DNA from: Lingula anatina
Taxonomy: Eukaryota > Animalia > Brachiopoda
NCBI GenBank assembly: GCA_051362555.1
Contig: CM120642.1
Location: forward strand, 30,256,001 to 30,320,000
Length of the DNA: 64,000 nt
Direction: 5' to 3'
The notes under the pieces are model-generated. The model saw only the letters and a list, made by a program, of their open reading frames with translations, did no database searches and was not told the DNA's origin. The position numbers and the translations under genes were made by a program. Shown here piece by piece: positions 6,521 through 49,794 of this stretch; position 1 is the stretch's first letter; each line of letters starts with the position of its first letter.

Positions 6521-7073
6521 AGATGTCATACCAAGGGCATGATGTAGGGCATGTGTCGTTGACAAAAATTAAAATGTAAACATTAAAAATCTGAGTAAAT
6601 GTTCAAATATTTTGTCTTACATTGGTAGTAATTGATGTTGATAGCGTACACACTACTATTGGACTTAGTCTACTCTGTATACCAGTAGGCAAATCTAACA
6701 TCTGTTAGACTGACAGATATTCAAGTTGATTTTATTAAATTTTAAGGTTTTTAGCAAAGGCATATATTAAGTAATTGAGATGATTTCTGAATGTCTGAAG
6801 ATAGTATTGTCTTTTATTGTATTGTCTTGTATTGTATTATATTGTACATGCACTTGTTCATGTGTCTATTTGGCTCAAGATTTTGAGTGAATTTTTAATT
6901 TCTTTAGATATTCAAAATGTGTATGTGAACCTCAATTCAGGCAATAAATGAAACACATTACTGAAAGAATTACAAATTAAGATGATTATTTCATGCAATA
7001 TTTGAATACATATCAGATAAAAACACTGCTGCAATGAAAAGTATGTGTGAACAGTAGAAACACTGGTGGCAGC

Positions 7074-7079: not shown

Positions 7080-8303
7080 TACAACACCTATTAACAGAAA
7101 CAACATTTATTACAAATACCACCTCAGTACCAGTTGTTGTTTTTTTATTTTTGTTTTTAAACTGTTCATCAATTTTCTCTACATTTTTAAAGATACAGTT
7201 TAAGCTCTTGATTAACATGAATTGTAGGCGAGATGCCAAGAACAATTTTTCTAGATCTGAACCAAATACCCTGATAAGTACCAAGCATAGAAACTTAATA
7301 AGATATATTTCCAGTAAATTGTTCAATAAAATAGCAAGATAAAAAAGACAATGAAAAACATTTAATACATCCAAGTACTTGTCATTAAATTCATATTTCT
7401 TTCCTTATACAGATCCTCATTATTTTCAACAACTCAAAATTAAAGTGAACCCTGGCTTTAGCAGGAGACAGAAAGCAAATAAAATATTCTAAGCCTTCTT
7501 TTTCCCATTCCTGATATTGACTGAATTGCACACCTTAATACTTTAAAACAAGAAGACTAACAATAGTTTGTCACAACAAATCCACCACCATAGCAGGGAT
7601 TATAAACAACCAGTATCAGTAAAGATGACTGGGACAGGACAGTCAGCCGATTATACACATAACTGACAGCACATTTCTCCTGCTGTGAAAATATCTTCAT
7701 TCAAACTAAGTGACATTACTACAGTACCTCGCTTACTTTTTTGACTTGGTCACAGGAGCAAGAGAAAATTGGGATGTAACTAGTATTATACACTTTGTAG
7801 TCTTTGACTTTACTTATACAACTTGAGACAGGGGAGAAGTCTTGGAAAGGCGGGGTTCACCCATTTTGGTGCTCAACCACAATATTTATGACACTTAAAA
7901 TTAAAAATACAAGCATATGATTTTAAACATAAAGATTCTTGTTCGAATTTAGTCACTGTAACTTTTTTAATAAGAACTCAAGACCTACTAAAGAGCATAT
8001 AAAACTTTCACTTGTGCAAATACATTAACATACTTGACAAGGCTGTCTTAATACATTAAGTCATATTGTACTCGCACAAAATGTTTGAATCTGGCTGCAT
8101 TTTGATTTGACAAAAAACAACAACAATAAAAAAGATTCATTTTATCAATAATTTATCTAAAAAGTTCAGATTTCACTTTACACATTATTTGATACAATAA
8201 ATTTGTGGCAGTCAAAGTAGTCTAGGATTCTAGATACTAATTAACTTTCACCTAAATATTTTACCCCTATAAATGACAAGAAGACGATTACTACTATTGC
8301 ACA

Positions 8304-8487: not shown

Positions 8488-9125
8488 GCACAAGAGGTTA
8501 CAAGGTGTTTGAAAGAGGTGCAAATTTTACATCTAAAAAATACATATTCTGTACAAACATTCGTATACAGATTCAAAAATGTTAACAGGTACGTATTTAG
8601 TATGCATAAGAATTTTCGGATTTCTTTTTTGGTAAACGTCTGTACCCTCATATCAAACTGTTAATCTGTATATCAATGCTGGAATATTATATTATCTGTA
8701 TAAAGCAACCATATATACTAGCCAATTATGCAATATATAATACAAAACATCTAAAAAGTAACTATTCTATATGGATTAATGTACACATATTTTTAGAAAT
8801 GACACTTATTTGCCACAAATTCAGACCACCCTCACCCCCCAATTCTAGAAAAAATCAGTTGCTCTTTTATGGAAAATACAGATGGCTGCCCAAGGTGATA
8901 CCAGGTCCCTCATCAAGTGCCCTTTGAAAAAAAATTTCTTATTCATACAAGTTTGATTTTGTATCCCCCCCCCCCCCCCCCCAAAAAAAAGGTCTATGAT
9001 TTGGCAAAACAAGATGAGGTTTCTGTATATAACATTACAATGCACTATCTAGGGTTTCTAGTGTAGGCATACATAAAAGAAGAACGTTATGAAGATAACA
9101 AATTACAAAAATGTCTCATTTTTTT

Positions 9126-9335
9126 CTATAATTGAGCACTCTGAGTTGACCCTGGCAATAAACCTCTCATCATCTCCATTGGCAGCGGGAAAATAATTGT
9201 TGAATTTTTCTCGGCCGAGATTGTGTTCAGGGTCTGAAGATAGCGCAGCTGGAGGGCTGATGGTGACTCTGCGATAACGTCGGCAGCCTCCTTCAAGGCA
9301 CGAGCAGCCTTCTGTTCTCCCTCTGCTGCGATAAC
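9126..9335 (-). CDS. stomatin paralog 1 last exon
   Basis: ttcag|[69 protein letters not shown]. Confidence 0.95.
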
Positions 9336-12300
9336 CTGAAAAACATCAAAGCATTGGAAATGATTGTAACCATATTTCCTGTCCTCGAAAGGTTACATTT
9401 GCAACAAAAATTCATACTTATTCTCTTTTATATTATAATATCTGTATGAAAAAAAATTGCATCAACACATGCCAAAACATCTTACCTTAGCTCTGGCCTC
9501 TCTTGATGCCTCTGCTTCAGCCGCCATGGCTCTCTGTAACTGAACAGGCAGGCGGACATCTTTGCTGTAATCAATATGAAAAATCATTGTTGTCATTATC
9601 AAAAACAATATATACTGACAGGCAAAATGTCCAACTATCATAAAATCTATGTGACCAGTTCATTTCATTTCATTTTACTTAATGTTTACCAGTTCAAAGA
9701 TACTGGCCCCTGTATAATTGGGATGGTACAATCTGATTATTCCTTAGTTTGCACAATACAAACACCAAAATTATATACCACAGATAAAATTAGTCTTAAA
9801 AGAGAGTTTAAAAAAAACCTGTTCCTGTGAAATGAAAAAGTGAATGCAGTGATAGTGCCCTGTTAATAACTATACATCTAAGTTCGTGAAATTCCCCAGA
9901 GAAACAACAACCCTCTACAGCTCTGTAACATTACTATCACACATCCTAACTTCATAACGCAACATGCAAAACAAAGTTTTCAATTTGAAAAGGTCACTGT
10001 TAATATATATATTGGAAAGTGATATTTTCTCAAATTGTCATGACTCATAGGGGGAAGGGGGAGGGGGGGCAATGCAAGAGAGTAACAAAGGGTATATTGA
10101 TTCAGGTTATATCATCCTTTTGCCAGGGGGAGTAACACAGAAGTAATGATGTTGCAATGTAAAGTGATTATCCCCCCTCCCCCATCGGTTACATCCCTAT
10201 ACGTCCCCGCACCGGTACGTCCCCGCACCGATACTCCCCCGCAGTATCAATGCGGGAAAGCTATGATGTGGGGGAGTAACGGTGTGGGGGAGTAACGATG
10301 CCCCAACATCGGCAACTTTACTGGGGATGTATCGATGCAGGGATCTATCAGTGTGGGGGTCGTATTGATGCGCATAATACTCAAAAATTTACTAAGGGGG
10401 TTTATTGGCATGTGGGAGTATCGGTACGGGGGAGTAACAGTGCAGGGGGGTATTGGTGCGAGGGAGTAACGGTGCGGGGGAGTATCAACATGCCCCCCCC
10501 CCCCCCCCCCCATCAAAGATATTGCACAGCTATAAATATTGTTCTATATACTGATGAGTTTCAGTGAACAGTGATTAGCTCATACAATGCAGGTTAAACA
10601 AGCAAATGGGCAATGAATATATGGATCTACCAGTTAGTAAAACATGCCATCATGACCTAAAGAAATCCCGCCCATTCTCTTAAACCTTTCTACCAGAGGC
10701 CAGCAGCTAAGTTTCTTGCTGTACACTGTCCAGGAATGTGCACAGAATCAGCCAGAAAAATATCTGTGGATGTCTGCTAAAATTTTTTGTGTCCCTGGTA
10801 GAGGGAATCCTAAACCCAAGTTTTGACAGAATTACTTATAAAACGTTTGCAACTGTGTCTTCTTAAAAAGGATTACTTTAACTCACTTGAAATTCTGACT
10901 GATTTTGGAATTTATCTGAATCTATCTGACTTTCTGACTTTGTAACAAATATTTTATCAGTCTTAGCTTTACTGTACTTAATGTCCCTGAACTGGTATAG
11001 TTGAATTTATATTCATTTTGAAGAATTATATTTTTGTTTGTGACCCCAATCAATAATGTGTTTCATGAAAATACAATATAACAATGAACAATGCACAGTA
11101 ATGATTTTGTAAATCAAGAGGTAAACGAATTTAATAACATTTTCTTGATAATAATTTCCAAACTTTTTCTCCAGTCTAAAATTACCAACTTTAATTACAA
11201 AATATAAACAGGAACAATTTTCATTTTCATTAACATTATGGTGACCTTCTTTTTATTTAATTTTTCTTTTAAATGAAGAAAAAATCAACATGACAATTAA
11301 GCCACAGTCCCCCTTACATTTCAACACGCTCCACTTTCACGCCCCATGGATCTGTAGCTTCATCCAACGTAGTCTAAAATATATAAGGTTATACTCTACA
11401 TTAAGCAAAGAGGAGAGTTAACTGTGCTCAAACTACATGCCCACTGCGTCATGGCGTAAAAAACGTGCTGTTCTTATTCCTACTGGTGCAGACCTAGTCT
11501 CAGGTCATGATGAAGAAATGAAAACCACATGTAGCTTGAAGGCAAAGCAAAAAAACAAACAAAAAAATCCAGCAATTCTTAACCCTCTCCCTCTCTTATC
11601 AGCAGTATATGAAGGAATGCCATACTACCTGGCCCATAGGTTTCATGCAGTGTGAGAGAGAAAGGGTTAATTTAGCTTACATTTCTACTCTCTCGACCTT
11701 TACGCCCCACGGATCGGTGGCTTCGTCAAGGGTAAGCTGGAAATAAAAACAGGAAAATGACCATGATAAATATGAAATAACAAGATCTATTGTCATATGC
11801 AAAATAATGCCTTTATCTAAACTTGAATATAATGATGTATCTAAATAACATAAAACAAAACAAAAAAATGATCATTCAAACCTGCCAAAAAGGGTCTTAG
11901 TTTTAGTTTCAAGATCATGAGGGAAAAGTAGGTAAGATGGAAATAGAATACCCACAGACTGCTTTCTTAACAGATAATCTTTGACATTTCAATCACCTGA
12001 GTGAAACGTAAAAAATCATCAAATTGTCTTTTTTTAATCATACAAGAAGGATGCCCTTCAAAACCAAAATGCAATTGGACACATGATGACGTAAAGTCTT
12101 CAGCCCTGCAGCTAAAACTGCAGCAATCTCATGTCTAGACATTTCACCTGTGTTTCCCATCTCACGGAATCTTACATTATCAGCTGGAATGATCATGTTT
12201 ACACAGCACTTGCAACACCAACTTTCACACCTGTGGTCTGCCAATAAAATATTTTGTCGACAAGTTCTATCTATCTGTGTGCTTGCCAGTCTGTCCGACT

Positions 12301-15300
12301 GTCTTTTTTTTTAACAAATCTAGTTCACCCATATAAATCAGTCTCTTTTCTCTCACACAACATATTATCCCACTAGTCAACATCAATTTCCACTGTCAGT
12401 ATTTTCCTCTAAGTGCACAAATACCATTGCTAAATTTCTGAAATAACAACCAATGAACTTCAAAGCGTTTGAAAAATACCTTCAGAAGAGATAACCCAAA
12501 GAACATCTGCTGGGAAAACAAATATCTGAGAAATTCACAAATTATACTTTATACTACATGCCATGATTGATGAAAAAGAAAAAACAGCAGGTTCACACTG
12601 GCCTAAAATATTACCATGTAGCAGTCCTGACATATTCTTTATGATATCATCAACTGAGTGAAATGGTCAGATGGTCACAAGCCCAGCAGCAGGTCAACTG
12701 AGTAATTAGAAAGCAGCAGTGTAATAGCTGACTACAAGGTATAACATAAAACCAGTTTTGAAGCATTCCACTTGACATCATGATCATTGTAATGAGGAGG
12801 GAGCTAGGCACCAATCTAGCAGTAGGACAAATGAGTGAATGGACATAGATGACCACTTAATGTCAGAATTCTTAAAAACCTGATGTAGTTTTGCAAGTGT
12901 GAATTAAGGGATAAGCCTGCTGACAATAAGAAAATAATCTCAGGAACAAGTGATAGTATCCATCCTTAGGCAGTTTTCTATTTCTTGACCAATAGAAATG
13001 AATGCCATGCTCCAAACACATGCAAGAGAAGTATTAAGGTTAAAGGCACAATAAAAAACCAAAAAAAAGAAGAAAAAATGCAGCTGCTATGGAAAATGTC
13101 ATGAAGCTTCATCAGCACGAGAAGTAGCATATACCCAAAAGGTATTCAATATTTTTTTTTTTTACACCTGCAAGATCAACATTCTGATCCAATCAGCGCT
13201 CACTTTCACCTAAAAATAAAAGGTAGATAAGAAGAAAGTGGGAACTGACTTTGGAGGTAAATGATAAGAGCCAGTTCACTAATGTACAAAGTAAAGATAA
13301 AAGAAGTCAAAACTTTTTTTAAACATCAAGATCAAAGTGAAAAGAAAGGATGGCTAAAATCAAGACAAGACTGCCACAAGATCGTTTGCACTTGCAGTCT
13401 TTACTCCACCTCTGTGAACTAGAAGCCAGAGTTTGGTTTCCACAGAAATAAGTATCCTGGTGCTGTAATGGTCTAAGGAAATACTACAGGAAATTAGAAA
13501 AACATTTAATGAACAAAAATATCCTTTCACTCAGTCAATTTTCAGATCTATATCTGTCTCTTAGTGCTTGTGCACTGTGCTATGGCGTGTGAGTAAATGC
13601 TGAAATATTTATATCTTCTAACAAGCATAAACTGAAATAAACTTCAATAAACAAAGTTCTGCAATTAATTTTGTATAACATGCTCTGTTAGCTAAAGACA
13701 AGAAGTTGTTAAAAATATAAATATATATAAACAGGTAAATGTCACACCATGAAAACAATCTAAAGGTAGTAAACAACCAAGTGAAAACAATAACTTAACC
13801 ACTTTTTGTAAGGGTTGCAATTTCTTAACTCATTCTTCAGATTTTAAAAAACTTTAAATTACTCCAAAGTATTTCCTTAAACTGATGGCCAAGGTTAAAG
13901 GTCAAGAGCACAATGACAATGTCACTGGCAAGGCAGACATATACAGTACCTGCATTGTGTGGCTGATATGTTCTCTGTCTGTCAACAGCTCGCTGAGGTT
14001 CTTGGTTCCCAGAACGTTACGCAACGAAGTCGATGCCAGGAGACGTGTTGAACGAGCAGCGTCTTCGACGTTGGTGATGGAAATGGTGGCATTCTGGACT
14101 CTGTAGTAAACCACGGCATCCACGGCCACTGTCACTGAGTCCTTCGTCAAAATCTAAACAATCATGGAAAATGAGTGTCAGAAGAGTACATAGCTCCGAT
14201 TATCAATAGGTCTAGCTCCTGACAAAGCAGAACCCGTTATAATTGCTTCACAAAGGCTTTCATGGAACATGTTCTTCAAATGCCCAATTTCAGCAATACT
14301 TTCACCATTTTCAAATTATTTAAATAATTTTTTTGCTTAGCATATATGTTAAATAATGGAAAATTTACAAAAAAAGTTACAAAATCAATTATGGTACAGA
14401 AGTAAACTATTGATGAAAAACTTGAGCAAGAGAAAACAAGATGTTGATAAATGTCAGAGGACAGAAAAGATGTGGGAAAGGAGACTTGCCTCTTGTGGAG
14501 GTACATCAAAGGACACAGTTCTCAGGTCAACCTTCTTGTAAGAATCAATACATGGGATGATGAAGAACAAACCTGAAGATGAACAACATTATATATAACT
14601 TGTAGATAGCGTCACAAAGCCATGGTAACATAGCACTTATTTGAAATGTCACTGGCTTCATTTGAATCCCTGTGCATTTGGATCATATCATACTAACAAA
14701 CCCTGCCATCTGTTCTACACCAACATCAGGATCATGATGAGAACATTAAACACCTATGATTCCTAAAACAGAATGGAGTAATAAAAATAAATCAATCGCA
14801 AAAATATAACAAACTGAATGTTTTTAGCAAAAAGATAACTTTGTTCCACTTGAATGTGTTGATGATGATTTACAATTCTAAAGAGTGGAAAAAAGAACAC
14901 CACATCAGCATTTCCCATGGAAGTTGATCTATACATTACTCAACTGAACAGTAAGTGATAATTCACTTCAGTGTTCATCTTGAAGCAATGCTCAGTTTGA
15001 TAGTGTCACTGGGGAGGGGGAGTCCATTTTAAGGCATCAAGTGCTATGTACAAACAGCTTTAATACCTAATAACAAGTTTCATTTGGGGATCTAACCATA
15101 AATTCTTAGCACACATTCAATCTCCCAGCTTGCAAGTATACAATAACCATAGCATCCCTGTTCTAAAGAGATGAAGTTGTACTCAAAATATCATACTAAT
15201 CTACTTAAGCTACATACTGAGTTGTCATGGTAATACCTACATATCACCATGGCAACCAAGCAGGTTTCCAATATCACTGCTATATCATTACTTACAGAGT

Positions 15301-15627: not shown

Positions 15628-18600
15628 CCTTTTTCTCTTTCTGCATGCATTATATTTTCAGCTGCAAAATGAATTTTGTTATAACAACATCAGTGAACAG
15701 CAACTGACACTCAGATGAGTCATTTGCACCTATAAACATTCAGTTTAATGCACTTTTGTTCTTGATCATCATACTAGTATATTAGTGAAATGTAAGGTGG
15801 AGAAGCTTTTATAATATATTGTTGATAAAAAAACTATGTAGCAGTGTTATCTCCAAGAACAATGTTCTGTGTTTGGTAAAAGGTTTACTTTACTTGGGAC
15901 TCTAAGCAGAAAAGGTGTTTTTTTTTTTCATAGATGAATCTCAGACTGAATGTTATAATATTTCCAATCAATACTGCAATAAAATCTTGCCACGAGAAAC
16001 CAAGTTATGGAAAACTGCATGTAATGTTTATTTAAGAGAAAGTATTTTTCCAGTGTCATTCTTATAGTTCAACAATTGCTGCCAGTCCTAAAAAAAATTA
16101 TAATTTGCTTTGTGATGCATTATTTTTTAATAAAATACATACCAACCCAACTCAAGTCTGTTTAAAACATAATTGCTTTGGGCTCTGGCAATCTGATTCC
16201 CTAACCTGCAATTTGTTTCAAAACAGCAGGGAAAGTTTGCAATTTGCTTTAGGAGTCAAAGCATTACCTGTGATTATACCAATTTCACATCTTTTTTCTG
16301 TGAGAGTATATTGGAAACAACTTCCCTTCAACATTCATCCCAGACCCTTCTACTGTAATTACTCGAACTACCAAACACCTCAGAAATGAAGTTTATTGTC
16401 TTGTGACTTATCCCTGGAGTTCCTTTTCAACATAAACCGTATTCCCTTTTCAGAACCCAATTTCAACTAAGTCTCTAATCACTAGGTAGTAATAATGTGT
16501 CAAAATTGAGGAAATACATTCATTCCATCAATGATGTATACATTTATTTACATATTTCCATGCCAAGTTATAATTTCACATAGCTCCATGTTGCTAGGTT
16601 ACTCCAGGGAACTCATAAGCAGTGTCTGAGGAAAAATCTCATCCTTCCTATTGCCAAGTGATTTTCAAAATAATTAATAACAGAAAAGATAGCCTGACAG
16701 GACCATCCAAAGTAATCACTTCTGTTTACACAGCTAATCAAGCACATCTGAAGAAACAAATTACTTTCCACCATGTTGGCCCACAATATCATATATTCTG
16801 TTTAACTTTCTCAGCAGGCCTAAAAACTTTCATCTTCATCATGTTACACAAAGAGAATACAGTATCAGTGTGTGTGTGTGTGCGTGTGTGTGTGTGTGCG
16901 CATGGATGTATGTGTATATGAGTGTTTATCATCTTTCCAGCACAAAAATGATTTTACTTTAACCAACTCGTCTGTATGCTAGCAAAGATGTTTATCTTTA
17001 TTAGAAAATCCACACTGAGGGATGCCATGCCCCCATGATGTCACTTGATAATTTAATTTCAAAACCCAAAATATACCGACAATACCCAGGGATGGGATAA
17101 AAATTCCTTCACCCCCCCCCCCTCCTCCTTCACCCAAAGTTTTTGTTAATTTTCTGTTTTTATAATTTCAGGCAAAACCTATCTAAGCTCTCTTTCACAC
17201 ATAAAAAGGAGAAAAAAATCAACCCAAATGAGCTAGGACATTTCCCTTATCATCAAACAACAAAACCACAATGTCATATCTCCTTTAGTGGTAAATTTAG
17301 CAAGATGAGTGAAACCTTTCATTTTTTTTTTTACCAGACTGAACACAATAATCTAATAAAGTAATTTCCTGTCACTGTTTAGAAATGGTTCAAGTCCAAT
17401 AGGAACATCCTATCTACTCCATCCATCACTAAATAATAAAATGATTGAGTACAAAAAAAAAACATTATATCAAGTAATTCCTGGGATAAATGGATTTGAA
17501 GAGAAATGTATGGGATGAAATACATAGTTTTGACTTTCTAAATGATTGCAGCGATTGAATACCTTATTCAAAAAGTTCAAATCCAATTCAGCCATCACTC
17601 TAAATAATGAAATGACTGAGTAGGAAAGAGAATGTTATATCCTGCTATTCAAAAGGATTAACTGTTTTGATGACAGATATATGAATTGAAATATGTAATT
17701 TTCTTTTTAAAAACGAGTACAATAAGCGAATACCTTATTCTATTAAGCTAAAATGCCTCAATGTAAATTGGAATTTCCCTCATTTACCTGGTCCCTTAGC
17801 TCCTCCGGGTAACAGACGCCCAAGTCTGAAAATGACAGCTCGTTCATATTCTTGAACCACCTGCAAAAAATGACATTACACACGTATTTCACCTAATTCA
17901 ATAGTAAGTAATTCATCTCTGACATTTGAAAGAATGACTCTTTAAATGATCTATCTGCAGTTAAATAATGCTATTTGATAAAACTGGGAGTGAATGCAAA
18001 ATTTAATATTTATGGGGCATGCGCACGTGAATGCATACACACGCACACAACACAGAACCTTCTATCTCTGGGAGGTTTTTGACAAATACACTTCAATTCC
18101 ATTCCACTATCCAAAGATAATGGTGCACATGCCATTTCCGATGGGTATGTTTGCATGGCTATTTCCAATGACACATACATGACCACAAACAACTAGCTGA
18201 AATGGATACTGTGCAGGCACGTCACTGGAAAGAGGCATGCACATTAGACAAACAGAAATGGGCTGACCGTGCATGCGCATCATTATCTGAAGAAAGGTGA
18301 ATAAAATATGAATCCGTTCTTTCTCACACAGTGATTAAGAAATAGCATCGAAGTTTTCAGTATGTATTCCAAATCAACATACATGTGCAAATTCTTCCAT
18401 CATACTATTCGTATACAAAATTTTTAAAATCATCATCCTACTTTCACACACATGCACACCATGCACGCACACACACACACATACAAACACCTACCTTAAT
18501 GCACATGCACAAAGAAAACGGCAAGGTACAGCCAATGAGAAGGTAGGAGATCCCCATTAGAATGTAACCACAGCAACCAATGCTCCCTCCATCATCAGGA

Positions 18601-19002
18601 CCTGGAAAACAGACAAAACATGTGTCAGGCTAGAAAGAAGTTTGTAGAACTTTCAAAATCATTTTGGGTTGTTGAGTTGAGATGCTTCTCAGCGAATTTG
18701 AAAAAAATTTGAAATACCTGCAATCCCTCAAAAGTTTGCAATTGGTTCTAGGACAGACTACCTTTACTTTTATGGTTTCCACGATGTTATCTAGTTGCAA
18801 ACAGCACTGTACAAAACAATATGTCCAGAATTTATGTGTCTGGTTACATAATGCAATTTACAGAGATATGTATGAGGAGAGAGAGGTACACGATGTATAA
18901 TATAATATAATATAATATAATATATGTATAATTTTATTTCATATTTTTTATCTATTTCACTTATTCTTTAATTGGTTTATTTTATAATTTCATTTATGCA
19001 TC

Positions 19003-19052
<50 letters not shown>

Positions 19053-19688
19053 ACTAGCACCAAGCAACCCTGATACATAAAAGCTTGAAGCAGGGACTCC
19101 AAAGTAGCTGAATATTTCATCAACAGTTTAATGTAAATTATAACAATCCATTTGAAATCAAATTACTATTTCAGAACTTCCACTTCAAAGGGAAGTATAT
19201 TAAACCCTTTGGTTATTTAATTACCTAAATAATAATTCCACACAATTATCAAAGAGCCACATCTACATGGTAACAAACATGCCTACAAACTTTTTCCAAA
19301 TATTTTCCCTCTTAACATTTCTTTTGAAGAAATGTACACATGCACAACAGACTTGAAACTTTTTTTTTTACCCACCATCTACTTTCTTGTCCATTACACA
19401 ACATAAATTCTCCTCATAGACACATTCTATTTAAGTAACAGATCATCCTTATTAACCTAGCTATCCTCATCTTTCATTGAAATAAAGAAATGATTTTTAT
19501 AATGTCAAGCAAATCACCATTTAATGCAAAATGGTATCTAGCTGTTTCATGGACAATATCCCTGGGGTATAAATACATGTAGTTTAAAACAGATATATCT
19601 TACTAAAATTATGCGCAGTCCTTTTATAAGCTGGCTCTTTTCCATTCACGACTGTCTCCAACGCAATATCTGTGCTCTCTGCTGCCAT
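9126..19688 (-). CDS. stomatin / MEC-2-like SPFH (band 7) protein, paralog 1, ~298 aa (proximal-promoter isoform)
   Basis: complement(join(9126..9335,9486..9564,[11318..11373 or 11681..11736],13950..14153,14490..14572,17788..17860,18495..18601,19604..19688)). Motifs: GCCG plus hydrophobic hairpin (LPFS), [85 protein letters not shown]. Confidence 0.95.
9486..9564 (-). CDS. stomatin paralog 1 exon 7
   Basis: [26 protein letters not shown]; flanked by tacag| and |gtaag. Confidence 0.95.
10186..10493. repeat. GC-rich element built of ~15-16-bp units in opposing orientations (probable non-autonomous DNA transposon)
   Basis: left arm acgtccccgcaccg x2-3; right arm repeated cggtgcgggggagtaa variants. 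Confidence 0.5.
10685..10805. mobile_element. small MITE (same family as 1668-1785)
   Basis: cctttctaccagagg ... ccctggtagaggg; internal similarity to the other two copies. Confidence 0.5.
11318..11373 (-). CDS. stomatin paralog 1 mutually exclusive exon 6B
   Basis: ttttag|ACT ACG TTG GAT...GAA AT|gtaagg; [18 protein letters not shown](I); 56 nt. Confidence 0.92.
11681..11736 (-). CDS. stomatin paralog 1 mutually exclusive exon 6A
   Basis: tttccag|CTT ACC CTT GAC...GAA AT|gtaagc; [18 protein letters not shown](I); 56 nt. Confidence 0.92.
13950..14153 (-). CDS. stomatin paralog 1 exon 5
   Basis: [68 protein letters not shown]; 204 nt. Confidence 0.95.
14490..14572 (-). CDS. stomatin paralog 1 exon 4 (GC donor)
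   Basis: [28 protein letters not shown]|gcaagt; 83 nt, as in paralog 2. Confidence 0.93.
17420..17760. repeat. degenerate ~170-bp tandem duplication
   Basis: ccatcact(c)taaataat.aaatga.tgagta ... gaataccttattc occurs twice. Confidence 0.55.
17788..17860 (-). CDS. stomatin paralog 1 exon 3
   Basis: [24 protein letters not shown]; 73 nt. Confidence 0.95.
18495..18601 (-). CDS. stomatin paralog 1 exon 2 (membrane hairpin)
   Basis: [35 protein letters not shown]; 107 nt. Confidence 0.93.
19604..19688 (-). CDS. stomatin paralog 1 proximal first coding exon
   Basis: [28 protein letters not shown] + A|gtaaga; phase 1 fits exon 2; TATAAA on - near 20140. Confidence 0.7.
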
Positions 19689-27184: not shown

Positions 27185-27911
27185 ACTAATTAACCCATGT
27201 GCTGAACATTTTGATGTCTTCTGCTCAAAGACTGGATTCTGACTTGATGTGCTTTGATCATATTCCACTTCAACCTTAGATGTAATCACTCAATTTAATG
27301 CCAGTCCAGCCTTTTTTTCTCAGTGTTGATAGCTTAATTTGCAGGTGCAATGAAAATGTACAATATATGCTAATCTCTTCCAAGAAAGGCTAATACTAGT
27401 CAAGAAAGACTCAGGCTTGGATTTAAATACCTGAACAACTTTGAACTCTAATCTTTTTCAATGGTTTTCTGTAAAAGCCTTTGCAAATGTGTGTTTTAAA
27501 AACTTCTTAGCTGTGCAACCTAACTTTTATGTCAACCAAGAGGTTCTTTATATAAGTCAAAGACTAAGCTATGACAAGAAATATAAGCTGTCGTATCAAT
27601 AGATATTTAAGACTGAATTTCGCAACAATGAGTGAGATCAGCACATGCTTTTAACTTAATTATATACATGCACATGTATGTGACATATTCCTTTCATGCA
27701 ACTTGCATAAATGTAATCAGTTTTGGTCAACAGCAGTGAACTGTTGTGCATGTTTAAAAGTGTTTCATAAACATAAAACAAATGAATGGTAAATTTTCAA
27801 GTTTTAAAAAAATACAGGCTAAATAATGATAGAAAATGTATAATTTTGGAAAATATCACATTTACTGTTATACACAGTTTGTCGTCTTGTACTTCTTGAC
27901 CTCTACATTTA

Positions 27912-27945
<34 letters not shown>

Positions 27946-28760
27946 TACCCACATACACACTTTACTGATTAGATTACCCCCCCAAAAAACTCTTCAGTAC
28001 ATGTTGCAACTGAGTTATATGTTATATGTAAAAATACCTTTAAAAAAACGGATCAAATGAAGTTCACACATTCAAAAAATAAAACTTAGGAAAAGGTTTA
28101 TAAGCACATATATATCACTCCTCAGGTAGTTTTATCCCTAGCCTAAGTGGAAATAAATAACCTTTCTGTGTTCCAAATAATGAAAAATCATGTACAAATA
28201 GGTGAGAATATAACGTATAACAATGAGAAGATTATATATACTAACCCATTTGATGAACATTTTGCTGTCTTCTGTGCAGAGCCTTCTGACTTGATGTGCT
28301 TTGATCATACTCCATTTCTATTTCAACCTTAGACATGAACAGTCTCTCACTTCAATGCCAGTCCCTTTCTTTCCTGGTGTGATGATGGCTCTATTTGCAG
28401 GTGCAATGAAAATGTACAACACTAATCTCTCCCAGGCTTAAAAGAAAGAGTTACGCTGAGCTTTGACTACCTGAACAGCCTTGAACTATGACCTTTTTCA
28501 ATGGCTTTACATAAATGCCTAATGCAAATGTTTGTTGCTTAGCTATGCTACCCACCCGAATGTCAACCTAGCTTCTTTAAATAACCTTGTGACAAGAAAG
28601 ATAAGCTTTAATAACAATAGATGTGTAATATGCTGGCTTTCGCAACAATCAATGAGGTCAGCATTATGCTGTAAACACATACATGCACACACACACATAC
28701 CTGTGCATTCCTTCCATGCAGTTTACACAAATAAGTTATAATTTTTGGTCAACTATTTCC
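27185..28760. repeat. old imperfect direct duplication (~550 bp; 27185-27740 vs 28235-28760)
   Basis: shared strings tctgacttgatgtgctttgatcata, ttcaaccttaga, tttgcaggtgcaatgaaaatgtacaa, ttcgcaacaat, ttttggtcaac. Confidence 0.8.
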
Positions 28761-40137: not shown

Positions 40138-43100
40138 GTTAGTACTGTGTCTGTGGTCACTTGATAAAATAACCCTCGATAAATATACACCTATACAAAC
40201 TGCGAACTCGTCTTTTGTTGTTTTACAAGCTCCAGAGACTGTGGCTTATAGGAGAAAGAAGGGCGTCGTCGCTAGGCGGTGTTTGAGGATTATCTCTTGA
40301 ATGCAAACCTCAAATGACGCGAGTTCACCGACAGTCTTAAAATGCTCTGCTCTCTCTGTTTTAAAAAGGATTGAATGCTATAATCATTATTAAAAAAAAA
40401 GTATGTGTATGTCTTTTTCTGTTTTGTTTAAATATATTGTGTGTGTGGCGGGGGAGATGCACGCACTGCTCTGGAACACTGTTTTGATGGAACGAGCCAA
40501 ATTTCGAGCCCGTTATGCATAATTGATCAGCTTAGCATTAATGATTGCGAAATAGTCATCGACGTTCCCAGACTTTTGATGAGAGAAAGAGGTCTCTTTT
40601 GCAATAGAGACTGTATTTTAACTGAAGTCCAGGTTTCGTAATATCAACCAACAATACAGAGCAATTGTTATTAATCATATTAACTATCAACTGATTAATT
40701 TATTTCACCCAAAATACTTTACCAATTTAACCAGAAAAATTATTTTCACAGGTGATATCTAAAAAACATGACCCCCCTCCCTCCCACACACACTCAAAGA
40801 AAATAATCAATCTAATCATATTTTATGAGTACTTTTTAGATTAGTAGTAACTTGTAGGTTGACAAAATGGGATGTATTTGTAACTATGAGTGAGAAATAA
40901 TCTTGTGACCAGTAAAGCCTAGCATTTATGATTGTGAAATAGTCATCGACGTTCCCAGGTTTTTTGATAAGATAAAGAGGTCTCTTTTGCAATAGGCACT
41001 ATAATGTTATTAAGTCCAGATTGTGTAATATCAACCAACAATACAGAGCAATTGTCATTAATCATGTATTTGATTTATATGATCGAAAATACTTCTACCC
41101 ATTTAACCAGAAAAAAATATTTCCACAGGTGATATCTATAAAACATGACCCCCTTCTCTCCACACCCACACACTCAAAGATAAAAAACAATATCAGTCCA
41201 ACAGAATTTTATTAGTACTCTTTAAATAAGTAATAACTTGTAGGTTGATGTAGGATAACAGCATGGTATTTGTTATTATAAGTGAAAAATAGTCTTGTGG
41301 CCAGAAAAGAAGAATTAAAGGTTAAGAATATTTGTAATACTAGTTTATGATAACATGCAAACATGCAATTGTCAATATTTAGAAGTACAAAGATTTTGGC
41401 ACTGCCACCTTTGACACTTTAAATTTTATTAATCTATTACTTATTTTATTTTCATTTGATTTTTTTATTTTTATTTTATTTTATTTATTTGTTATTGCTA
41501 TCTTTTCAATTAAAAACATTAAATTAAAAAAATGAAGTGTCATTTGATATTTTAACTTGTATCATCCCTTTCATTGCTAGTGAGTGAATTTCTATGTAAA
41601 TATGTGGTAAACATTTTTGTTTCACAATTTTTTCATCAATTTATCTTAGGACAAGAAGTTGAGGAGGACATAGGCTGCTGTGGTTCAATACTTGTGTTCA
41701 TATCATGGGTGCTGGTTGTCTGCACATTTCCATTTTCTCTTTGTTCCTGTGTGAAGGTGAGGATTTTTTTTATAAGAAACACTGGCTGATGATTGATGAT
41801 TGAACGGAGGACCACACCCCCAACACACACACACGCATGCGCACACACGCACACACACTGTTCCAAAAATATAGATGTAGTTAAATCTTCAATTTCTATG
41901 AGTAATGATATCAATCAAATTATATAATAATGTTCAAGTTCATAAAATGTAAGGAATAAACAAAATTGCAAAATTGGATCGTTAAAAGAAACTGTATGTG
42001 ATTCTGATTCAAAAGAAAAATGTTGACTTCCATTTACTTGGTACTTAAAGACTATGATCACTATTTTGAGATTCAAATTTTTCTTGTCAAGGTAATAGGG
42101 GCACTGTTTTTTCACTGTGTAGCACCCTGTGTGAAAAGTGTACTGACTGGAAGTTTACCCACTATTCCACTGTTAGCCAGATCTGGTTTAGTTTCTAAGT
42201 GACAAGAAAATCCATTTTTTATCGTGGCATTTTAAATTGTGTAAGCCAAAATTGCGAAGTACAAGTATGGATTTTCGGACTTGAAGTCAGTCAAAGTATA
42301 ACAAAAAACTTTCAAGCTAGATTTTAACAAAAAATTCTCTTTATCGAACACAAGCCCATGATGTATGTACTTAACAGTGACCTAATGTTGAAATCCCCAC
42401 TCCAAATCCATTATATAAGCACAGCACAGTCAAGCAAACACTATACACTACAATAGGTGGTCATATGTTCTAATGGAAATACCTCATCTGAAAAGGATCT
42501 TTATTTGACTTTTATTGATAGGTGAGAGTTTCGCCGGTCAAAAACTGTTACTGGCTGGACTTTGTTTTGTTTGTTGGTAGCTATGGTCAAACGTGCTTAC
42601 TACTAGAGGTTAAATGAGCAACTCTGTTTACAAAGTATGAGAAGGCTGACCGTATGACCATCACTAGGTGCTTAAACACTCATCTCATTAGTCTTTTTAT
42701 CAATATTTTCTCTACATAAAGAAAAGAAAAGATCTAAATGTATGATCAATAATTGATTTACTTAAATGTTTATAGTATTGTGGGACATACTTAAGCAGTT
42801 TTCCAGACTTGTCACATTACTACAAAATTAAAGACTATTCTATTCTATATCTACAAATGATGAATTTTAAATTTGTTTGCGATTTTTTATATCTTAAATG
42901 GCATGCAATATAGTATCATAATTTCAACCAAAAATATTTTCCTGGGGTAAAGGATAATTTTCCCCAATGGTTAAAGAAGCCATTCCAACATTCAAAGTAA
43001 ATTCCTTTTTTTTTATCTTAAAAGTTTGCTTTATTGTAATAACCTCTAGAGATTATTACAGAAGATGGCAATTTTTGAAGGTTTTGTGGTCCATTGGCAA

Positions 43101-46100
43101 CCACGGTTTTCAGATTTATTGTGATAACTGCCATTTTGTTGGTAAAATAGAATTTATTACATTTCTATCATAGGAGTTCTTTACAATGTTTTATCGTGAA
43201 ATATGGATATCATACAGAGTTGTTATCTCTTAAACATATCATGAAGTTAGCACTGTGCTGGTATTTGCAATAAGGACCAAAATAAACACCTCTCACATCT
43301 GCCTGTGTCTGATGTTACTTTGCCAGTCATTATTTCTATACATAAATGTGTACATATTATCCCCATTCTCTTCTTTCATCATTACTTCCTTAAATTCATT
43401 TTCTATCATCTGTAGGTTGTTCAGGAATATGAAAGAGCTGTAATATTTCGCCTGGGTCGCCTGGTGGGAGGAGGTGCCAAAGGACCAGGTAAGAAAGCTA
43501 TATGAGATTGAACTTGGGGTGAATGCAAGGGTAAAGCACAGGGGTAGCGCTAGCAATTTTTTTTCACTTAGCCAAATCATTTTTTTTATCAATTTGTTAT
43601 CCAAATGGTTATAATTTGACTAAAACAAGTCAAATCGAGCCCTTTTTGTTTAGTGTAAGTGCTACCCCTGAAAACAAGACTTATTGGTTTGGACTGTTCC
43701 TATAGTGTATATGGATACATGGTGAGGTTAAAGCTGCAGCCGTTTCCCCCCCTTTTATTTTAAGCACCATAGTCATAACCTGAAGATGTTACAGTATTAT
43801 ATAAAATATCTATTTAAATACAGATTATGACACAAATAAGTCTATATATGAATTTAGGTTACATGTTTTCTGTAGTTTTTCTTTGGAATTATTTTGTACA
43901 CTAAAGCCAATTTGTAGACAAATAGACATAAGTAGTTACATTTTTTCCATACTTAAAGTAAAATTGATGAGTTACCTACAGGTAGATGAAATAGATATAC
44001 ATGCAAAATAGAGGTGATAATTATCAGGGCTTGACACTAACTTTTTTCAATACTGGCCCCCCGATATTGGTAAATATTGCAAAGATTATTTGGCACATGA
44101 CATTTTACTTGCTCTTGGGCCAGTGACCTCAGCGATTCAATGGCCCTAGGTCGGTTTTCAGTGGCCCAGGAGCCTGAATATCTCCACTTATTCTCGTAAA
44201 GCATAGCAACAAGTGCTCTATCTGACTTCAACTATGGTTTGACCAGAAAACGACAGTCTGCATGCCACTGTGCTCTATTCTGTATCCATGCCACTTCAAT
44301 GAATATAGAATGGGCAGTCTGTTGTTTTTGCTCGATCCATGGTTTAAGATACAGATAAATGCATAGCACTTTAATACAGAAAAAATAATTCATATAAGAA
44401 TTCTCTCGAAGTTCATTAGACATTGACATTGTGTTATAGATGGAAGGGGAAATAATTAGCCTTACCAAAATCACTATTCTAAAAGCTTTTTTTTTCTTTC
44501 TAGAAGCTCAAACAGGTAAAACGTGTAAACTGTGATGTGCAGCGATCCCTATGCTTATCTGTATATGTACTACAGCATAATAGAATAAAATTACCCTCTA
44601 AACTGAACATACTTTTTATGTCAGCATTCGTCAAAAGTGGATTTTCTCGAGGCATTCTTTATACCATGTTGACCATTTGTTAACTTTTTTCTGACCATTA
44701 AATTCCTATTAGGTACACAGTGTATGCTTTCCAACCTTTTGATATTGTGGTTTATTGAAGTCTATTTTTTGTAATTTACTGCATTTTGTACCTTTTAGAG
44801 ACATGACTTCTGTATCTAGACATGCGCAAAATGTTAAGATTCATTTCATTCAACTATATTAGGTTATATTTTCAAGTTATAGGAAAACATTGAAGAAAAA
44901 CTGAAAAGTATGCTTTCGTCCCAAAAATGCCTGTGTATTTGTTGCCCCTTTTCATTTTTCATCATCAAGAATATTAAATGCTACAGTGAAATTTTGAAAA
45001 AAAAAAATGATTTTCCGTTTTGTTATTTCCAAAGAATCACACTTTGCTGCAGGGTTTGGATAACATGCACAGATCATTATATTGAATCGTCCTGTTTCCA
45101 ATTTGTCATTTTTATCTAAGGTAGTAGAAAGGGTTATAGCAGTTAGACTATTTAAGCATTTAGAAGCAAACAATCTTGTTGAGGAAATGCAGTCAGCCTA
45201 CAAATTCAATCATAGCACAGAATCTGCACTTTTGAGAATTAAAAATGATTTGTTAAGTGGTGTTGACAAACAAATTGCTATGTTATTGGTACTGTTAGAT
45301 TTGTCTGCTGCGTTTGACACAGTAGACCATAATATTTTATTGACATTTCTAGAGCAGAGTGTAGGGGTTAGAGATAAGGCCTTAGATCTTTTACGATCCT
45401 ATCTTGTTGGGAGAATGCATCAAGTTAATATAAATGGTGTGCTTTCTGAACTCTCACAGCTTTTATTTGGTGTTCCTCAGGGGAGCGTGCTTGGCCCGCT
45501 TAAGTTTTGTGTTTACACCTTACCCCTTGGAGCAATTCTGCGTTATCATAAGATAGGTTACCACTTTTATGCCGATGATACCCAGTTGTACACATCTTGT
45601 AACATCCATGATCCAGCATTGTCTGTGAACACAATTGTTGATTGCATATCAGACCTCAGAGGTTGGCTCATTTCAAACAAATTGAAGATAAATGATGGAA
45701 AAACAGAATTTTTAGTCATTACTCAACCCCACAACAAGGGCCTTGCTCATAACTTGCAACTTAAAATTGGAGCTAGTATGGCATTTTCCTCCCCCCATGT
45801 AAAAAATTTAGGAGTATACTTTGATTCTACACTTTCAATGGACAAACAGATCTCCAACATCACAAGGTCTTGTTTATTCAACATTCGGAATATTGGTACC
45901 ATAAGGAAACATCTGAATCAATCTGCTGCTGCTACTGTTATACACTCATTGGTAACTTCCAGGCTAGACTATTGCAATTCTATATTTTATGGATGTCCAG
46001 ATGATAAGATCAAAAGATTACAACGCATCCAGAATATATCAGCACGGCTTTTAATGCTACAGCCTAGGGATTGCCATATCACTCCAATTTTAAAGCATCT

Positions 46101-47084
46101 GCACTGGTTACCAGTTAGGGCCAGAATTTTATTTAAGGTTTTAGTTTTTACACATGCTGCTTTTTATAATCTAGCTCCACCATATATAACTGATTTAGTC
46201 AAACATTATAGCCCTCAAAGATCTCTGAGGTCTGGTGACAAACTTTTACTGAAAGTTCCAAAATCAAGGTTAAAATCATATGGTGACATATCATTTTGTG
46301 TAGCTGCACCAGTAGAGTGGAATAAGTTGCCAATTTTTATTAGACAAATAGAATCACAAGAATCTTTTAAAAAGGAATTAAAAACTCATATTTTTAAGAC
46401 ATTTTATTCATGAATCTTAAATTTTATAATTTTAAAGAAACCTTGGATTTTTTACTTTTAATTACTGTTTATTACAATTAATTAAGTTAGTTTAGCTCTT
46501 ATTTATATAAAATATATCTTAACCATTTTTATCTATAAACTTCTTTGTATTTTATGTTGTACAGTCTATTGAACATTTTATGGATTTTAGACTTGAAATA
46601 AATATATTATTATTATTATTATTATTATATAACAGCCAGCTTTGTGTTACCATGATGTGCAGTTTAATTTATTGCTACAAATGATGAATAATTGCTACTT
46701 ATGTACCGTAACATATTTTGAACACAGTGGTGATTTAAAGAAAAACACAAGTAAAAGGTTAAGGCCTTCATTTATTAATTTGATATGTAATTTTTACTTG
46801 CAGGAATGTTTTTCGTGCTGCCTTGTATTGAGGATTACACCAAAGTGGATCTTAGAACTGTGTCCTTCGATGTGCCACCACAGGAGGTAAATTTTCAAGA
46901 CAGTCTGCATCCTAGACCTGATCTGAGTACAAAGATCTCTATAAACTATATCAAAAAAGGGAGTTGATAATATACTATGTTTACATCCCCACAGCAGCAT
47001 TCCAAACATTCACCTGCTTTAAAACGATTGTATTACCGTTGTGACTTTTCCATATTTATCATGGTGTCATAGTCAGTCCACCAG

Positions 47085-47157
<73 letters not shown>

Positions 47158-49725
47158 CTTTGTTTGTGTAAGCTTTAAAAAAAGACAAGCATCTGCCCTC
47201 TTCTGGCCAAATTTGCTGTTCAGTGCACCAAAATGTTGTCACCACTTTTTATGTACAGACACAGCAAGTTCTGTACATACTGTCAGCAGGCAGGTCTGTA
47301 CGCAAGAACATGTTTGAAATGATCTAGATATAATTTTTAAACTGCTTAATTCAGCACTATGAGTATCTATCATTCATTAAGGTATGTTTGCACACAGACC
47401 ACAAAATATCAAATGAACTCGGTTATATTTCATGATGCTATGAAGTCTGAAATGTGGGATTTTATATGTGTATTATTTTGATTTATTTCTTCATGTAGAG
47501 CTTGTGTGAAAATATAGTCAGAAGTCATATTGCCATTCTGTAAAGCAATCAGTTTTTGCAGTGGAACAGTTAATGTAGAAATAATGGATTTAGTGCAATT
47601 TATACCATCATCTACCATTCCTTAATGCAGAACATGATTTTTTTTCCATATCCATCATATTTGGTATGGGATTGAAGCCCTGTATAGATCTATGCTTTAA
47701 AATTATTGAGTGAATGTCTGAGTAAATTTAGCTGGTGTAACTTTTGAGGCACTCTAGTTTGCCAGCACTGATTAGTTAATATGGGATAAACCTGCAGCTT
47801 GAATACTGTACATATACAAATTTAGCCACTTTGGGTTTTAAATATTTTGAACATCAGCTAAATACATATGAGAAAAGAAAAATTATATAAGGGGCATAAT
47901 TATCATTAAAAATTGGAAATAAAGCATGCTGTTATGTGGCACTATACACAGTGATTAAATTTTATTATTTTTTTTTAGTTTCTGAAATTTAAGTGGATTA
48001 CAGCAAAGGCAACATTGCAGTTAGAAAGCTTGTGGTTTAAGACTCATTTTAATTGAATTTTACTCAGGATTGAAAATTTTATGCTAATGGACCAACTTTT
48101 TGATGAGACAGAACCAGCCTCTTGGTCTATTAGCATTTTACTTATAAACACAGCATGTCTATTAGTCAATCTATATCAAGTGGATAAAAAGGGTGGGAGA
48201 AATGTCATAGCTATGGATACCTGCTGGTTGGAAGTGGAATTCAATGCAAATGCAAAGAGCTAATATTGATAGGTAACTGCAAATTGCCCAACAATTAAGC
48301 TGCATAAAACTTTTGTTGTATATTGATTTTTCATGGCCATATATAACATAGCTTAGTGATCTGGTGGTTATACGAGTTCATATGGAAATGGACAACATTG
48401 TATTGCTTAATCTGCAGAAGATAGTGGATAATGAACAGGTAGAGATTCCTCAAAACATCAAACATCCTCAGAGCTGTTTATTATGCCACTTTACGAAAAA
48501 TGTAGAAGTATTGAAGTAGATACTATAGCTCATTGATTTTACTTTGGGTAATAATAAGTCTTCATGTTTCTGCTCGGATGGATTGTATTGTCTTGCTGCC
48601 ATGGCAACCCACCCTGGTTCCCGTAGCTGAATACAGGCAGCTGTATTGGTATTGAACGGGTCATTTATATTTCCTTTCACTCAGTCACGTTAGGACAGTA
48701 ATAGACATGTTTTGAAATGGATGATGTATTTTTTAACCCAAAGCCCCTTTTAGTCAAGGCTTTCCCCAAATACATGGACAGCAGTGCAGCAGACCTCTAG
48801 TTTATTCAACTAAGAAAGAATTTTTAGAATTTTTACAGAAACAACAGTGTTGTCAGAACATACGATGTTTGGCCCTTGCTGTGAAAGCACCGGTGATGGG
48901 ATAAATGGGAAGTTTAATAAAATGGTGTCATCTATTTATTACTATTTAGCATTTGCACCTTGCAATGTTTTGGAAAGTCTTCAGGGACAGCCCAAAGTCT
49001 TGTGACTTTGAGTAAAATCAAGCAAGATTTAATTTGGAGGAGAATGGGTCAGAAATAGAGTGAAAAAAAAAACAAAAAAAACAAAACAATTTATCCATGA
49101 ATATATTTTCTGGTTGTTTTGTTTTCAGTTCTGTTAAATAACAGTCTGTTACACAGCTTTTTGGATCCACTGTGTTTTGGGTGTCACTTTTGTATTGCTA
49201 TCCAAGACCGCATTCCTAGTGGATAGACTTTCACACATTGCTAAAAAAGCAAAATCCATGGTAAATGGATTCTCACACATTTTCATGTCTGTATAGCATC
49301 ACGCAATGCTGACAACCTCGTTAACAGCTTTCTCGGTTGATTTCCATAGTATATGTTTACACCTCACACTAACACTTCCTTCAGCTGCCTTACATAGATG
49401 GCATCATTTCTAGTCAGGTGTAATAATATAGCTTGTTAGATTAGAGAACGCCTGATTACACAAAAGGCATAGAACAGAGTACATAGACTTTGATTTTTAC
49501 TTACCAGTGTCTGCAAATCCATCCATGGGATTTAAATATTTAGTATCTCAGGATCAATTCTGAATTAGGAAAATAAACATCTGTTGCGATATGTATGGTG
49601 TACATTTTGCAGCTGCTGAACATATTAATTGCCCAGCAAGTTTTCAGGTGCTTTAAAGTAAATGTAAAAAAACTTGTGTTTAGGTACCATTTACTTATTA
49701 TTTATTTATTTTATTTTTGGGATGG

Positions 49726-49794
<69 letters not shown>

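What the first reader, a model, noticed from the sequence alone, without database searches (positions are those of the whole stretch)
11318..11736. Mutually exclusive exon pair that toggles a single amino acid (Leu/Thr) in a stomatin SPFH domain
Seen: two tandem 56-nt exons, both with AG/GTAAG sites and the same phase, encode [18 protein letters not shown](I) (11681-11736) and [18 protein letters not shown](I) (11318-11373). They differ at 15/56 nt, yet only codon 1 changes the amino acid; 11 other codons differ synonymously, so both copies look old and under purifying selection. Including both gives a stop inside 6B ([12 protein letters not shown]); skipping both gives a stop in exon 7. Only one-of-two splicing is productive. 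Established: stomatin/MEC-2 proteins tune DEG/ENaC/ASIC and other mechanosensory channels, and C. elegans mec-2 is spliced in a neuron-type-specific way. Inference: a splicing switch kept to alter one residue (hydrophobic versus phosphorylatable), or to act through NMD or codon usage, probably cell-type specific.
Basis: partly seen in the sequence, partly recalled or inferred. Interest (0 to 1): 0.88.

Follow-up and report, generated by a model that had tools for sequence, protein, structure and literature searches.

The report
Swappable twin exons in brachiopod stomatin
A lamp-shell (Lingula) stomatin gene carries two old copies of one small exon that RNA reads show are used one at a time, in proportions that differ between samples; the copies differ by only one or two amino acids, so both are likely kept because different cells use different copies, and molluscs appear to duplicate the same exon with larger changes.

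Summary
Observation confirmed. The minus-strand gene is a Lingula anatina stomatin/MEC-2-like gene. Its two 56-nt exons differ at 15 bases and one residue. RNA reads show all four one-of-two junctions; no 6A-6B junction was listed. The Leu exon (6A) is 0-1.5% of reads in one study, 30-32% in a second and about 10-20% in a third; tissues are unknown. Both copies are old and under purifying selection. 'One residue' holds only for this haplotype: 6B codon 2 is Thr or Ser among animals. The toggled position (human stomatin 176, helix a4) varies widely across the family and is not a listed pocket residue, so a switch kept for that residue is the weaker reading. Seven mollusc isoform pairs differ only in this same exon (5-9 residues), and two unnamed animal contigs carry tandem copies. 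Single-residue exon switches are known (SCN2A); none of my nine literature searches listed this stomatin exon pair, and the Lingula RefSeq model lacks both exons. This scan earlier noted an exon pair in an arthropod stomatin gene. Verdict: new member of a known kind, interest 0.4.

The parts
11681..11736 (-). Exon 6A, 56 nt, Leu at codon 1; minor form
   Evidence: AG/GTAAG ends; joints to exon 7 in 2/14/11/8 reads and to exon 5 in 1/10/10/6 reads of X1/X4/X7/X8; 4 of 4 read variants synonymous
11318..11373 (-). Exon 6B, 56 nt, Thr at codon 1, Thr or Ser at codon 2; major form
   Evidence: joints to exon 7 in 112/25/48/52 and to exon 5 in 91/25/45/42 reads; variants at 11326, 11347, 11362, 11368 synonymous, 11370 Thr to Ser
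11374..11680 (-). 307-nt intron between the two copies; no splicing across it was listed
   Evidence: no joint listed in 4 runs laid on 11150-11900; 23 AG dinucleotides, so no AG-free zone
11654..11670 (-). 5' arm of a predicted 17-bp hairpin starting 11 nt after the 6A donor
   Evidence: stems this long in 1 of 300 shuffles but 23 of 416 genomic tiles; predicted only
11579..11595 (-). 3' arm of the predicted hairpin
   Evidence: pairing probability 0.98
11644..11649 (-). TGCATG, the Rbfox consensus, 32 nt after 6A in the hairpin loop; candidate enhancer
   Evidence: 0.47 per kb on this strand, so about 0.14 expected in the intron by chance; untested
12334..12363 (-). Upstream intronic stretch able to pair with the 5' hairpin arm, which would loop out 6A; weak candidate
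   Evidence: duplex -26.9 kcal/mol, 3 of 200 shuffles as good, but pairing probability under 0.001 against the local hairpin
13950..14153 (-). Constitutive exon 5 (204 nt)
   Evidence: 100% identical to Lingula anatina XP_013412687; Pfam Band_7; read joints
9486..9564 (-). Constitutive exon 7 (79 nt)
   Evidence: read joints; translation
9126..9335 (-). Coding part of last exon 8
   Evidence: translation; read joint to exon 7
14490..14572 (-). Exon 4 (83 nt) with a GC donor
   Evidence: joint 14153-14490 with CT..GC ends in 4 of 4 runs
17788..17860 (-). Exon 3 (73 nt)
   Evidence: translation; its end matches the loose read ends at 14575
18495..18601 (-). Exon 2 (107 nt), membrane hairpin region
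   Evidence: translation; 100% match to P0012; not covered by the read lays
28244..28336 (-). First coding exon used by the RefSeq model; other candidates at 27193-27280 and 19604-19688
   Evidence: tblastn of P0012; blastn; not covered by the read lays

Best explanation
This is an old tandem exon duplication in a Lingula stomatin gene that is spliced one-of-two, with 6B as the major form and 6A as a minor form whose share differs between samples; both copies are likely kept because different cells or stages are committed to different copies, and the Leu/Thr difference is likely of small effect. Shown: exon anatomy, the four junctions, sample-dependent ratios, purifying selection on both copies. 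Inferred: (1) 6B is the default and 6A is switched on in some tissues, possibly through the predicted hairpin and Rbfox-type motif just after its donor; (2) double inclusion is blocked or removed by nonsense-mediated decay, since 56 nt shifts the frame and the stop lies 98 nt before the last junction; (3) a cell that selects 6A needs an intact 6A, so selection keeps both copies even if the two proteins work almost alike in the stomatin ring.
For: Junctions and ratios: 6A share 3 of 206 (X1), 24 of 74 (X4), 21 of 114 (X7), 14 of 108 (X8) junction reads; 0 of 196 (X2), 24 of 81 (X5), 26 of 128 (X7 again) loose-end reads, and depth 5 versus 45-48 in X9. Runs of one study agree (0-1.5%, 30-32%, about 10-20%). 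Selection on both: pS 0.86, pN at most 0.10; the copies differ at 12 of nt 7-56, like unrelated animal exons (mean 11.3); flanks do not align. Residue looks tolerant: position 1 has S 149, T 106, A 40, V 11, L 10, G 7, E 6, K 3, D 2, N 1, I 1 among 336 of 399 proteins (redundant set); in one unnamed animal group Leu and Ser alternate along with other differences, as expected between species. Pocket residues Leu178 and Thr182 (PMC3433786, passages) are the same in both copies.
Against: Tissue and stage of the runs are coded, so cell-type partition is not shown; study or population could explain the ratios. No difference was listed at the Leu codon in the 14 X7 reads of the diverged population, which fits selection on Leu. 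In molluscs the same exon carries conserved differences, so this exon can matter at protein level. SCN2A shows that a one-residue exon switch can be developmentally regulated. The hairpin and the Rbfox motif are near chance level and their conservation was not testable. Junction counts include both mates and reads that span both junctions, so they are not independent.
Confidence: 0.5

Rival explanations
1. The pair is a protein-level switch: Leu versus Thr (plus Thr versus Ser) on helix a4 tunes partner binding, phosphorylation or mixed-ring assembly.
For: The exon encodes the end of helix a4 and most of strand b3 (a4 167-185, b3 187-198; PMC9157467 passages), next to the pocket needed for ASIC modulation. 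No change listed at the Leu codon in the diverged population. Leu is rare at this position (10 of 336). Precedent: SCN2A D209N. Mollusc variant exons keep the same Cys/Ile/Arg-His/Ile changes across bivalves and gastropods.
Against: Position 176 is not a listed pocket residue and tolerates many residues; Leu and Ser alternate there in another animal group; 6B codon 2 is polymorphic; neither Lingula copy has the mollusc signature.
Confidence: 0.3
2. The pair works at RNA level: exon choice sets the amount of stomatin through unproductive splicing and decay, or through codon and mRNA features.
For: Both wrong combinations break the frame; 11 synonymous codon differences; in C. elegans 14 of 19 non-3n clusters rely partly on NMD (PMC4165533 passages).
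Against: No double-inclusion joint listed and neither double inclusion nor double skipping among the 15 joints shown (9 weaker ones hidden). Synonymous sites vary freely among animals in both copies. The double-skip stop lies only 31 nt before the last junction, inside the 50-55 nt limit (rule recalled).
Confidence: 0.12
3. 6A is a decaying or neutrally tolerated spare exon spliced by leakage.
For: 6A is absent or nearly absent in 2 of 7 runs.
Against: Up to a third of reads in other runs; saturated synonymous divergence with one amino-acid change; 4 of 4 variants in 6A synonymous.
Confidence: 0.05
4. The two copies are an assembly artefact (two haplotypes or a paralogue merged).
For: Samples are polymorphic and a paralogue lies in the window.
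Against: Copies differ by 27%, far more than alleles (1-4 listed differences per exon and run); both splice to the same exons 5 and 7 within single runs; the paralogue's exon differs from both by 14-16 bases.
Confidence: 0.01

Closest known systems
SCN2A (NaV1.2) neonatal/adult mutually exclusive exons, D209N (PMC7054859, passages)
   Same: Tandem homologous exons spliced one-of-two, products differing by a single residue, regulated use.
   Different: Different protein family; there the timing and the functional effect are studied, here neither is; here the second codon is also polymorphic.
Tandem duplicated exon substitution events (PMC9741552, passages and one supplement file searched)
   Same: Old, homologous, mutually exclusive exons with mostly conservative changes, arising repeatedly in membrane-protein families.
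   Different: Stomatin is not named in the main text or in the one supplement file held; supplementary gene tables that I could not see may list a fly or worm stomatin.
Mollusc stomatin RefSeq isoform pairs (Pecten maximus X1/X2, Argopecten irradians, Babylonia areolata two genes, Patella vulgata X1/X2, Saccostrea echinata X1/X2, S. cucullata X1/X2)
   Same: Same-length isoforms that differ only within the same 19-residue exon-6 peptide.
   Different: They differ by 5-9 residues with a shared Cys/Ile/Arg-His/Ile signature; both Lingula copies are of the ordinary type. Seen at protein level only; common origin not resolved.
C. elegans mec-2 isoforms A/B/E (PMC8934639, passages)
   Same: Stomatin-family gene with regulated alternative splicing.
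   Different: Those isoforms differ at the C-terminus and share the stomatin domain; mec-2 is not named in the C. elegans mutually exclusive exon survey's main text.
OGDH exons 4a/4b enforced by distant branch points (PMC7969005, passages)
   Same: A branch-point-like TTAAC and a pyrimidine tract lie 11 nt after the upstream exon's donor, in a predicted hairpin.
   Different: The Lingula intron has 23 AG dinucleotides and ordinary branch-point candidates near its 3' end, so the AG-free zone of that mechanism is missing.

Membership tests
Stomatin/MEC-2 (Band 7, SPFH) family | Band_7/SPFH domain | tested here: met
   Pfam PF01145 above cut-off for P0012 and for exon 5
Stomatin/MEC-2 (Band 7, SPFH) family | Full-length similarity to stomatin with hairpin, SPFH and coiled-coil parts | tested here: met
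   Joined translation is open for 298 residues; a mollusc homologue aligns to human stomatin structures at E 5e-127
Stomatin/MEC-2 (Band 7, SPFH) family | One-to-one orthology to nematode MEC-2 or to the mollusc genes with the exon pair | tested here: inconclusive
   Quick tree of 52 rows without exon 6 leaves the gene at an open fork; the careful search did not finish; no nematode row was included
Stomatin/MEC-2 (Band 7, SPFH) family | Modulates DEG/ENaC/ASIC channels; forms 16-mer rings | not testable with these tools
   From papers on mammalian stomatin only
Tandem duplicated mutually exclusive exons | Adjacent homologous exons of equal length and phase with own splice sites | tested here: met
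Tandem duplicated mutually exclusive exons | Each exon spliced alone between the same flanking exons | tested here: met
   Four junctions in 4 of 4 runs; loose ends
Tandem duplicated mutually exclusive exons | Double inclusion and double skipping absent or rare | tested here: met
   No joint listed (threshold 3 reads); neither among the 15 joints shown, where 9 weaker joints are hidden
Tandem duplicated mutually exclusive exons | Tissue- or stage-specific choice | tested here: inconclusive
   6A share 0-32% across 7 runs, consistent within study, but sample identity is coded
Distant-branch-point (steric) exclusion, OGDH type | Branch point within 50 nt of the donor followed by an AG-free zone to the acceptor | tested here: not met
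   TTAAC at +11 but 23 AG dinucleotides in the intron
Docker/selector competing RNA structure | One site pairing alternatively with two partners, conserved with covariation | tested here: inconclusive
   One arm has two possible partners, but the local hairpin dominates (0.98 versus under 0.001); no second genome to test conservation

The most novel reading that the evidence does not exclude
Stomatin exon 6 is an undescribed, Cambrian-old splicing switch shared by brachiopods, molluscs and some annelids. Molluscs use it to remodel the helix a4/strand b3 pocket region, while Lingula has kept two nearly identical copies to synonymous saturation, showing that cell-type splicing alone, or a single surface residue, can preserve a duplicated exon in a mechanosensory scaffold.
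Probability: 0.2. Interest if true: 0.65.

Novelty: new member of a known kind. Interest (0 to 1): 0.4.

Why it matters
It corrects the Lingula gene model, which lacks both exons, and adds the stomatin family to those in which tandem exon duplication recurs. The exon covers the part of the SPFH domain that holds the channel-modulating pocket, so the mollusc and Lingula pairs give natural variants for testing how stomatins tune DEG/ENaC/ASIC channels. The Lingula pair is also a clean case for asking whether duplicated exons can be kept by splicing regulation alone.

Tried and rejected
No whole genome is held for the window, so no other Lingula or brachiopod DNA could be searched. The run search listed no indexed RNA holder; raw-read runs were laid instead. 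Distant-branch-point exclusion: rejected for lack of an AG-free zone. Long-range pairing that loops out 6A: possible on paper but outcompeted in the folding ensemble; no comparable pairing in L025 (54 of 60 shuffles as good). Shared synonymous patterns between Lingula and L025/L107 copies as a sign of common origin: within the background spread. Tree test of orthology: unresolved, quick tree only. Single-sequence structure model of P0094: pLDDT 39, not used; burial of residue 176 was not measured. Reads at 11329-11366 and the variants at 11338, 11340, 11341, 11359 come from the paralogue and were left out of the counts. Two X9 reads joining 11566 to 11849 link A-rich stretches and were treated as mis-mapping. 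No variant exon was seen among the Haliotis, Octopus, Mya, Mytilus, Tubulanus, echinoderm or tick isoforms fetched; these are partial annotation lists. More DNA around L107 could not be obtained, so its flanking exons are unseen. Literature searches listed no paper on this exon pair; the library lacks most subscription papers.

Full report
The observation. On the minus strand, 11681-11736 (6A) and 11318-11373 (6B) are both 56 nt with AG before and GTAAG after, 307 nt apart. They differ at 15 bases; codon 1 is Leu versus Thr and 11 other codons differ synonymously. Either alone keeps the frame between exon 5 (13950-14153) and exon 7 (9486-9564); both together stop inside 6B and neither stops inside exon 7. 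Joining the exons gives a 298-residue protein with either copy. Exon 5 is 100% identical to Lingula anatina XP_013412687 and matches Pfam Band_7. That RefSeq protein reads from exon 5 into the intron and lacks both copies.

Use in RNA. Nine raw-read runs with the same species label were offered; seven were laid. On 9100-14700, joints 6B-exon 7 / exon 5-6B had 112/91, 25/25, 48/45 and 52/42 reads in X1, X4, X7 and X8; joints 6A-exon 7 / exon 5-6A had 2/1, 14/10, 11/10 and 8/6. That gives 6A shares of 1.5, 32, 18 and 13%. Neither 6A-6B nor exon 5-7 is among the 15 joints shown; 9 weaker joints are hidden, and the weakest shown have 6-7 reads. On 11150-11900 no joint at all was listed in X2, X5, X9 and X7. 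Loose ends there give 0 of 196 (X2), 24 of 81 (X5) and 26 of 128 (X7) for 6A; X9 has depth 5 on 6A against 45-48 at the ends of 6B. Runs of one study agree: 0-1.5%, 30-32%, about 10-20%. Tissues are coded, so regulation by tissue or stage is inferred, not shown. The counts include both mates and are not independent.

Age and selection. Nei-Gojobori gives pS 0.86 and pN at most 0.10 (Fisher P 9e-7), and the flanking introns do not align. Over nt 7-56 the copies differ at 12 sites, as much as 106 distinct exons from unrelated animal contigs differ from each other (mean 11.3), so the duplication is old but cannot be dated. Read variants in 6A are 4 of 4 synonymous; in 6B four sites are synonymous and one changes codon 2 from Thr to Ser, fixed in X7, X8 and X9 and in about half of X5's reads. 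The isoforms therefore differ by one or two residues. No change was listed at the Leu codon in the 14 X7 reads that cover it.

Where the residue sits. Mapping a mollusc homologue to the stomatin structures (mouse construct 86-213) puts exon position 1 at residue 176. Helix a4 spans 167-185 and strand b3 187-198 (PMC9157467, passages). The pocket needed for ASIC modulation includes Leu178 and Thr182 (PMC3433786, passages); both are the same in 6A and 6B. Residue 176 is not named in the passages of the four structure papers searched for it. It varies across the family: S 149, T 106, A 40, V 11, L 10, G 7, E 6, K 3, D 2, N 1, I 1 in 336 of 399 proteins (a redundant set). The ten Leu cases belong to one unnamed animal group in which Leu and Ser alternate together with other differences, as between species. 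I could not measure burial (model pLDDT 39).

The same exon elsewhere. Seven named pairs of same-length mollusc isoforms differ only inside this 19-residue peptide: Pecten maximus (9 residues), Argopecten irradians (9), Babylonia areolata in two genes (5, 5), Patella vulgata (6), Saccostrea echinata (6) and S. cucullata (6). The variant type has Cys at position 6, Ile at 12, Arg or His at 13 and Ile at 19; it also appears in Magallana, Ostrea, Lymnaea, Candidula and Nucella models. This is protein-level evidence; I saw no mollusc DNA. Both Lingula copies are of the ordinary type. A pattern scan of about a third of the metagenome collection gave 117 loci. Forty-five hold both flanking exons, and in 13 of those exon 6 is a separate exon; 1 of the 13 (L025) has two copies, 72 nt apart, differing at two residues. 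L107 has four copies in the 554 nt held. The closest named proteins to L025's exon 5 are annelid (Helobdella 91%) but bivalves reach 90%. So duplication recurs but is not universal. A quick tree without exon 6 left the Lingula gene unplaced: one ancient origin with later homogenisation and independent origins both remain open. The second stomatin gene in the window has a single exon 6.

How one-of-two may be enforced. Each exon is 3n+2. Double inclusion stops 98 nt before the last junction and would be a decay target; double skipping stops 31 nt before it, inside the 50-55 nt limit (rule recalled). In C. elegans 14 of 19 such clusters rely partly on NMD (PMC4165533, passages). A branch-point-like TTAAC and a pyrimidine tract follow the 6A donor, as in OGDH (PMC7969005, passages), but 23 AG dinucleotides follow, so that mechanism fails its test. 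The same tract forms a predicted 17-bp hairpin, reached by 1 of 300 shuffles but by 23 of 416 genomic tiles. TGCATG, the Rbfox consensus (PMC12772994, passages), lies in its loop; 0.14 copies are expected in the intron by chance. A rival upstream partner for the arm (12334-12363), as in docker/selector models (PMC6071210, abstract), is outcompeted in the ensemble. These are leads only.

Reading. Most likely (0.5) the copies are kept because splicing commits different cells or stages to different copies, each of which must then stay intact, with the residue difference of small effect. A true protein switch is the main rival (0.3); RNA-level control 0.12; leakage 0.05; artefact 0.01.

Against what is known. 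This is a tandem duplicated mutually exclusive exon pair, a known class that recurs in membrane proteins (PMC9741552, passages; one supplement file searched without a stomatin hit, other tables unseen). SCN2A is a one-residue precedent (PMC7054859, passages). C. elegans mec-2 is spliced at its C-terminus in the passages seen (PMC8934639; PMC12084633 and PMC12084653, passages). Searches listed no paper on a duplicated stomatin exon 6; the mollusc pairs already exist as automatic RefSeq isoforms. Verdict: real, new member of a known kind, interest 0.4.

Noticed in passing
window 41650-56749 (+): A second stomatin gene, divergently oriented, with the same exon sizes and a single exon 6 at 55519-55574; it is expressed in the laid runs.
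   Followed up: partly
window 9176-9335 and 56561-56720: The last coding exons of the two stomatin genes are 91% identical in DNA against 68-75% for the other exons (41 of 51 codons identical), which suggests gene conversion between them.
   Followed up: partly
window 28244-28336, 27193-27280, 19604-19688: Several candidate first exons; the first two are 80% alike, so a first exon is also duplicated. Use in RNA not tested.
   Followed up: partly
window 14489-14490: Exon 4 uses a GC donor, confirmed by reads in 4 of 4 runs; the paralogue has GT there.
   Followed up: yes
window 10035-10780: A GC-rich 16-nt-period repeat with long inverted arms in the intron after 6B; it attracts reads from elsewhere, likely a dispersed hairpin element.
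   Followed up: no
window about 52755-53000, 57580-57790, 59480-59730: Similar palindromic-looking stretches recur in and after the paralogue, possibly a miniature inverted-repeat element (read by eye).
   Followed up: no
L025 (oriented 6549-6731 and 7460-7642): The same gene has two tandem copies of the last coding exon as well as two of exon 6.
   Followed up: no
L107:1-554: Four tandem copies of exon 6; the last three are recent (3-6 differences) with repeated flanks.
   Followed up: partly
L015; proteins P0013, P0028: Three tandem versions of the first part of exon 5 in a crustacean-like contig and two in Daphnia and copepod models: a second exon-duplication site in stomatin genes.
   Followed up: partly
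runs X7, X8, X9: These runs carry many fixed differences from the window in coding exons, suggesting a diverged population or cryptic species under the same label.
   Followed up: no
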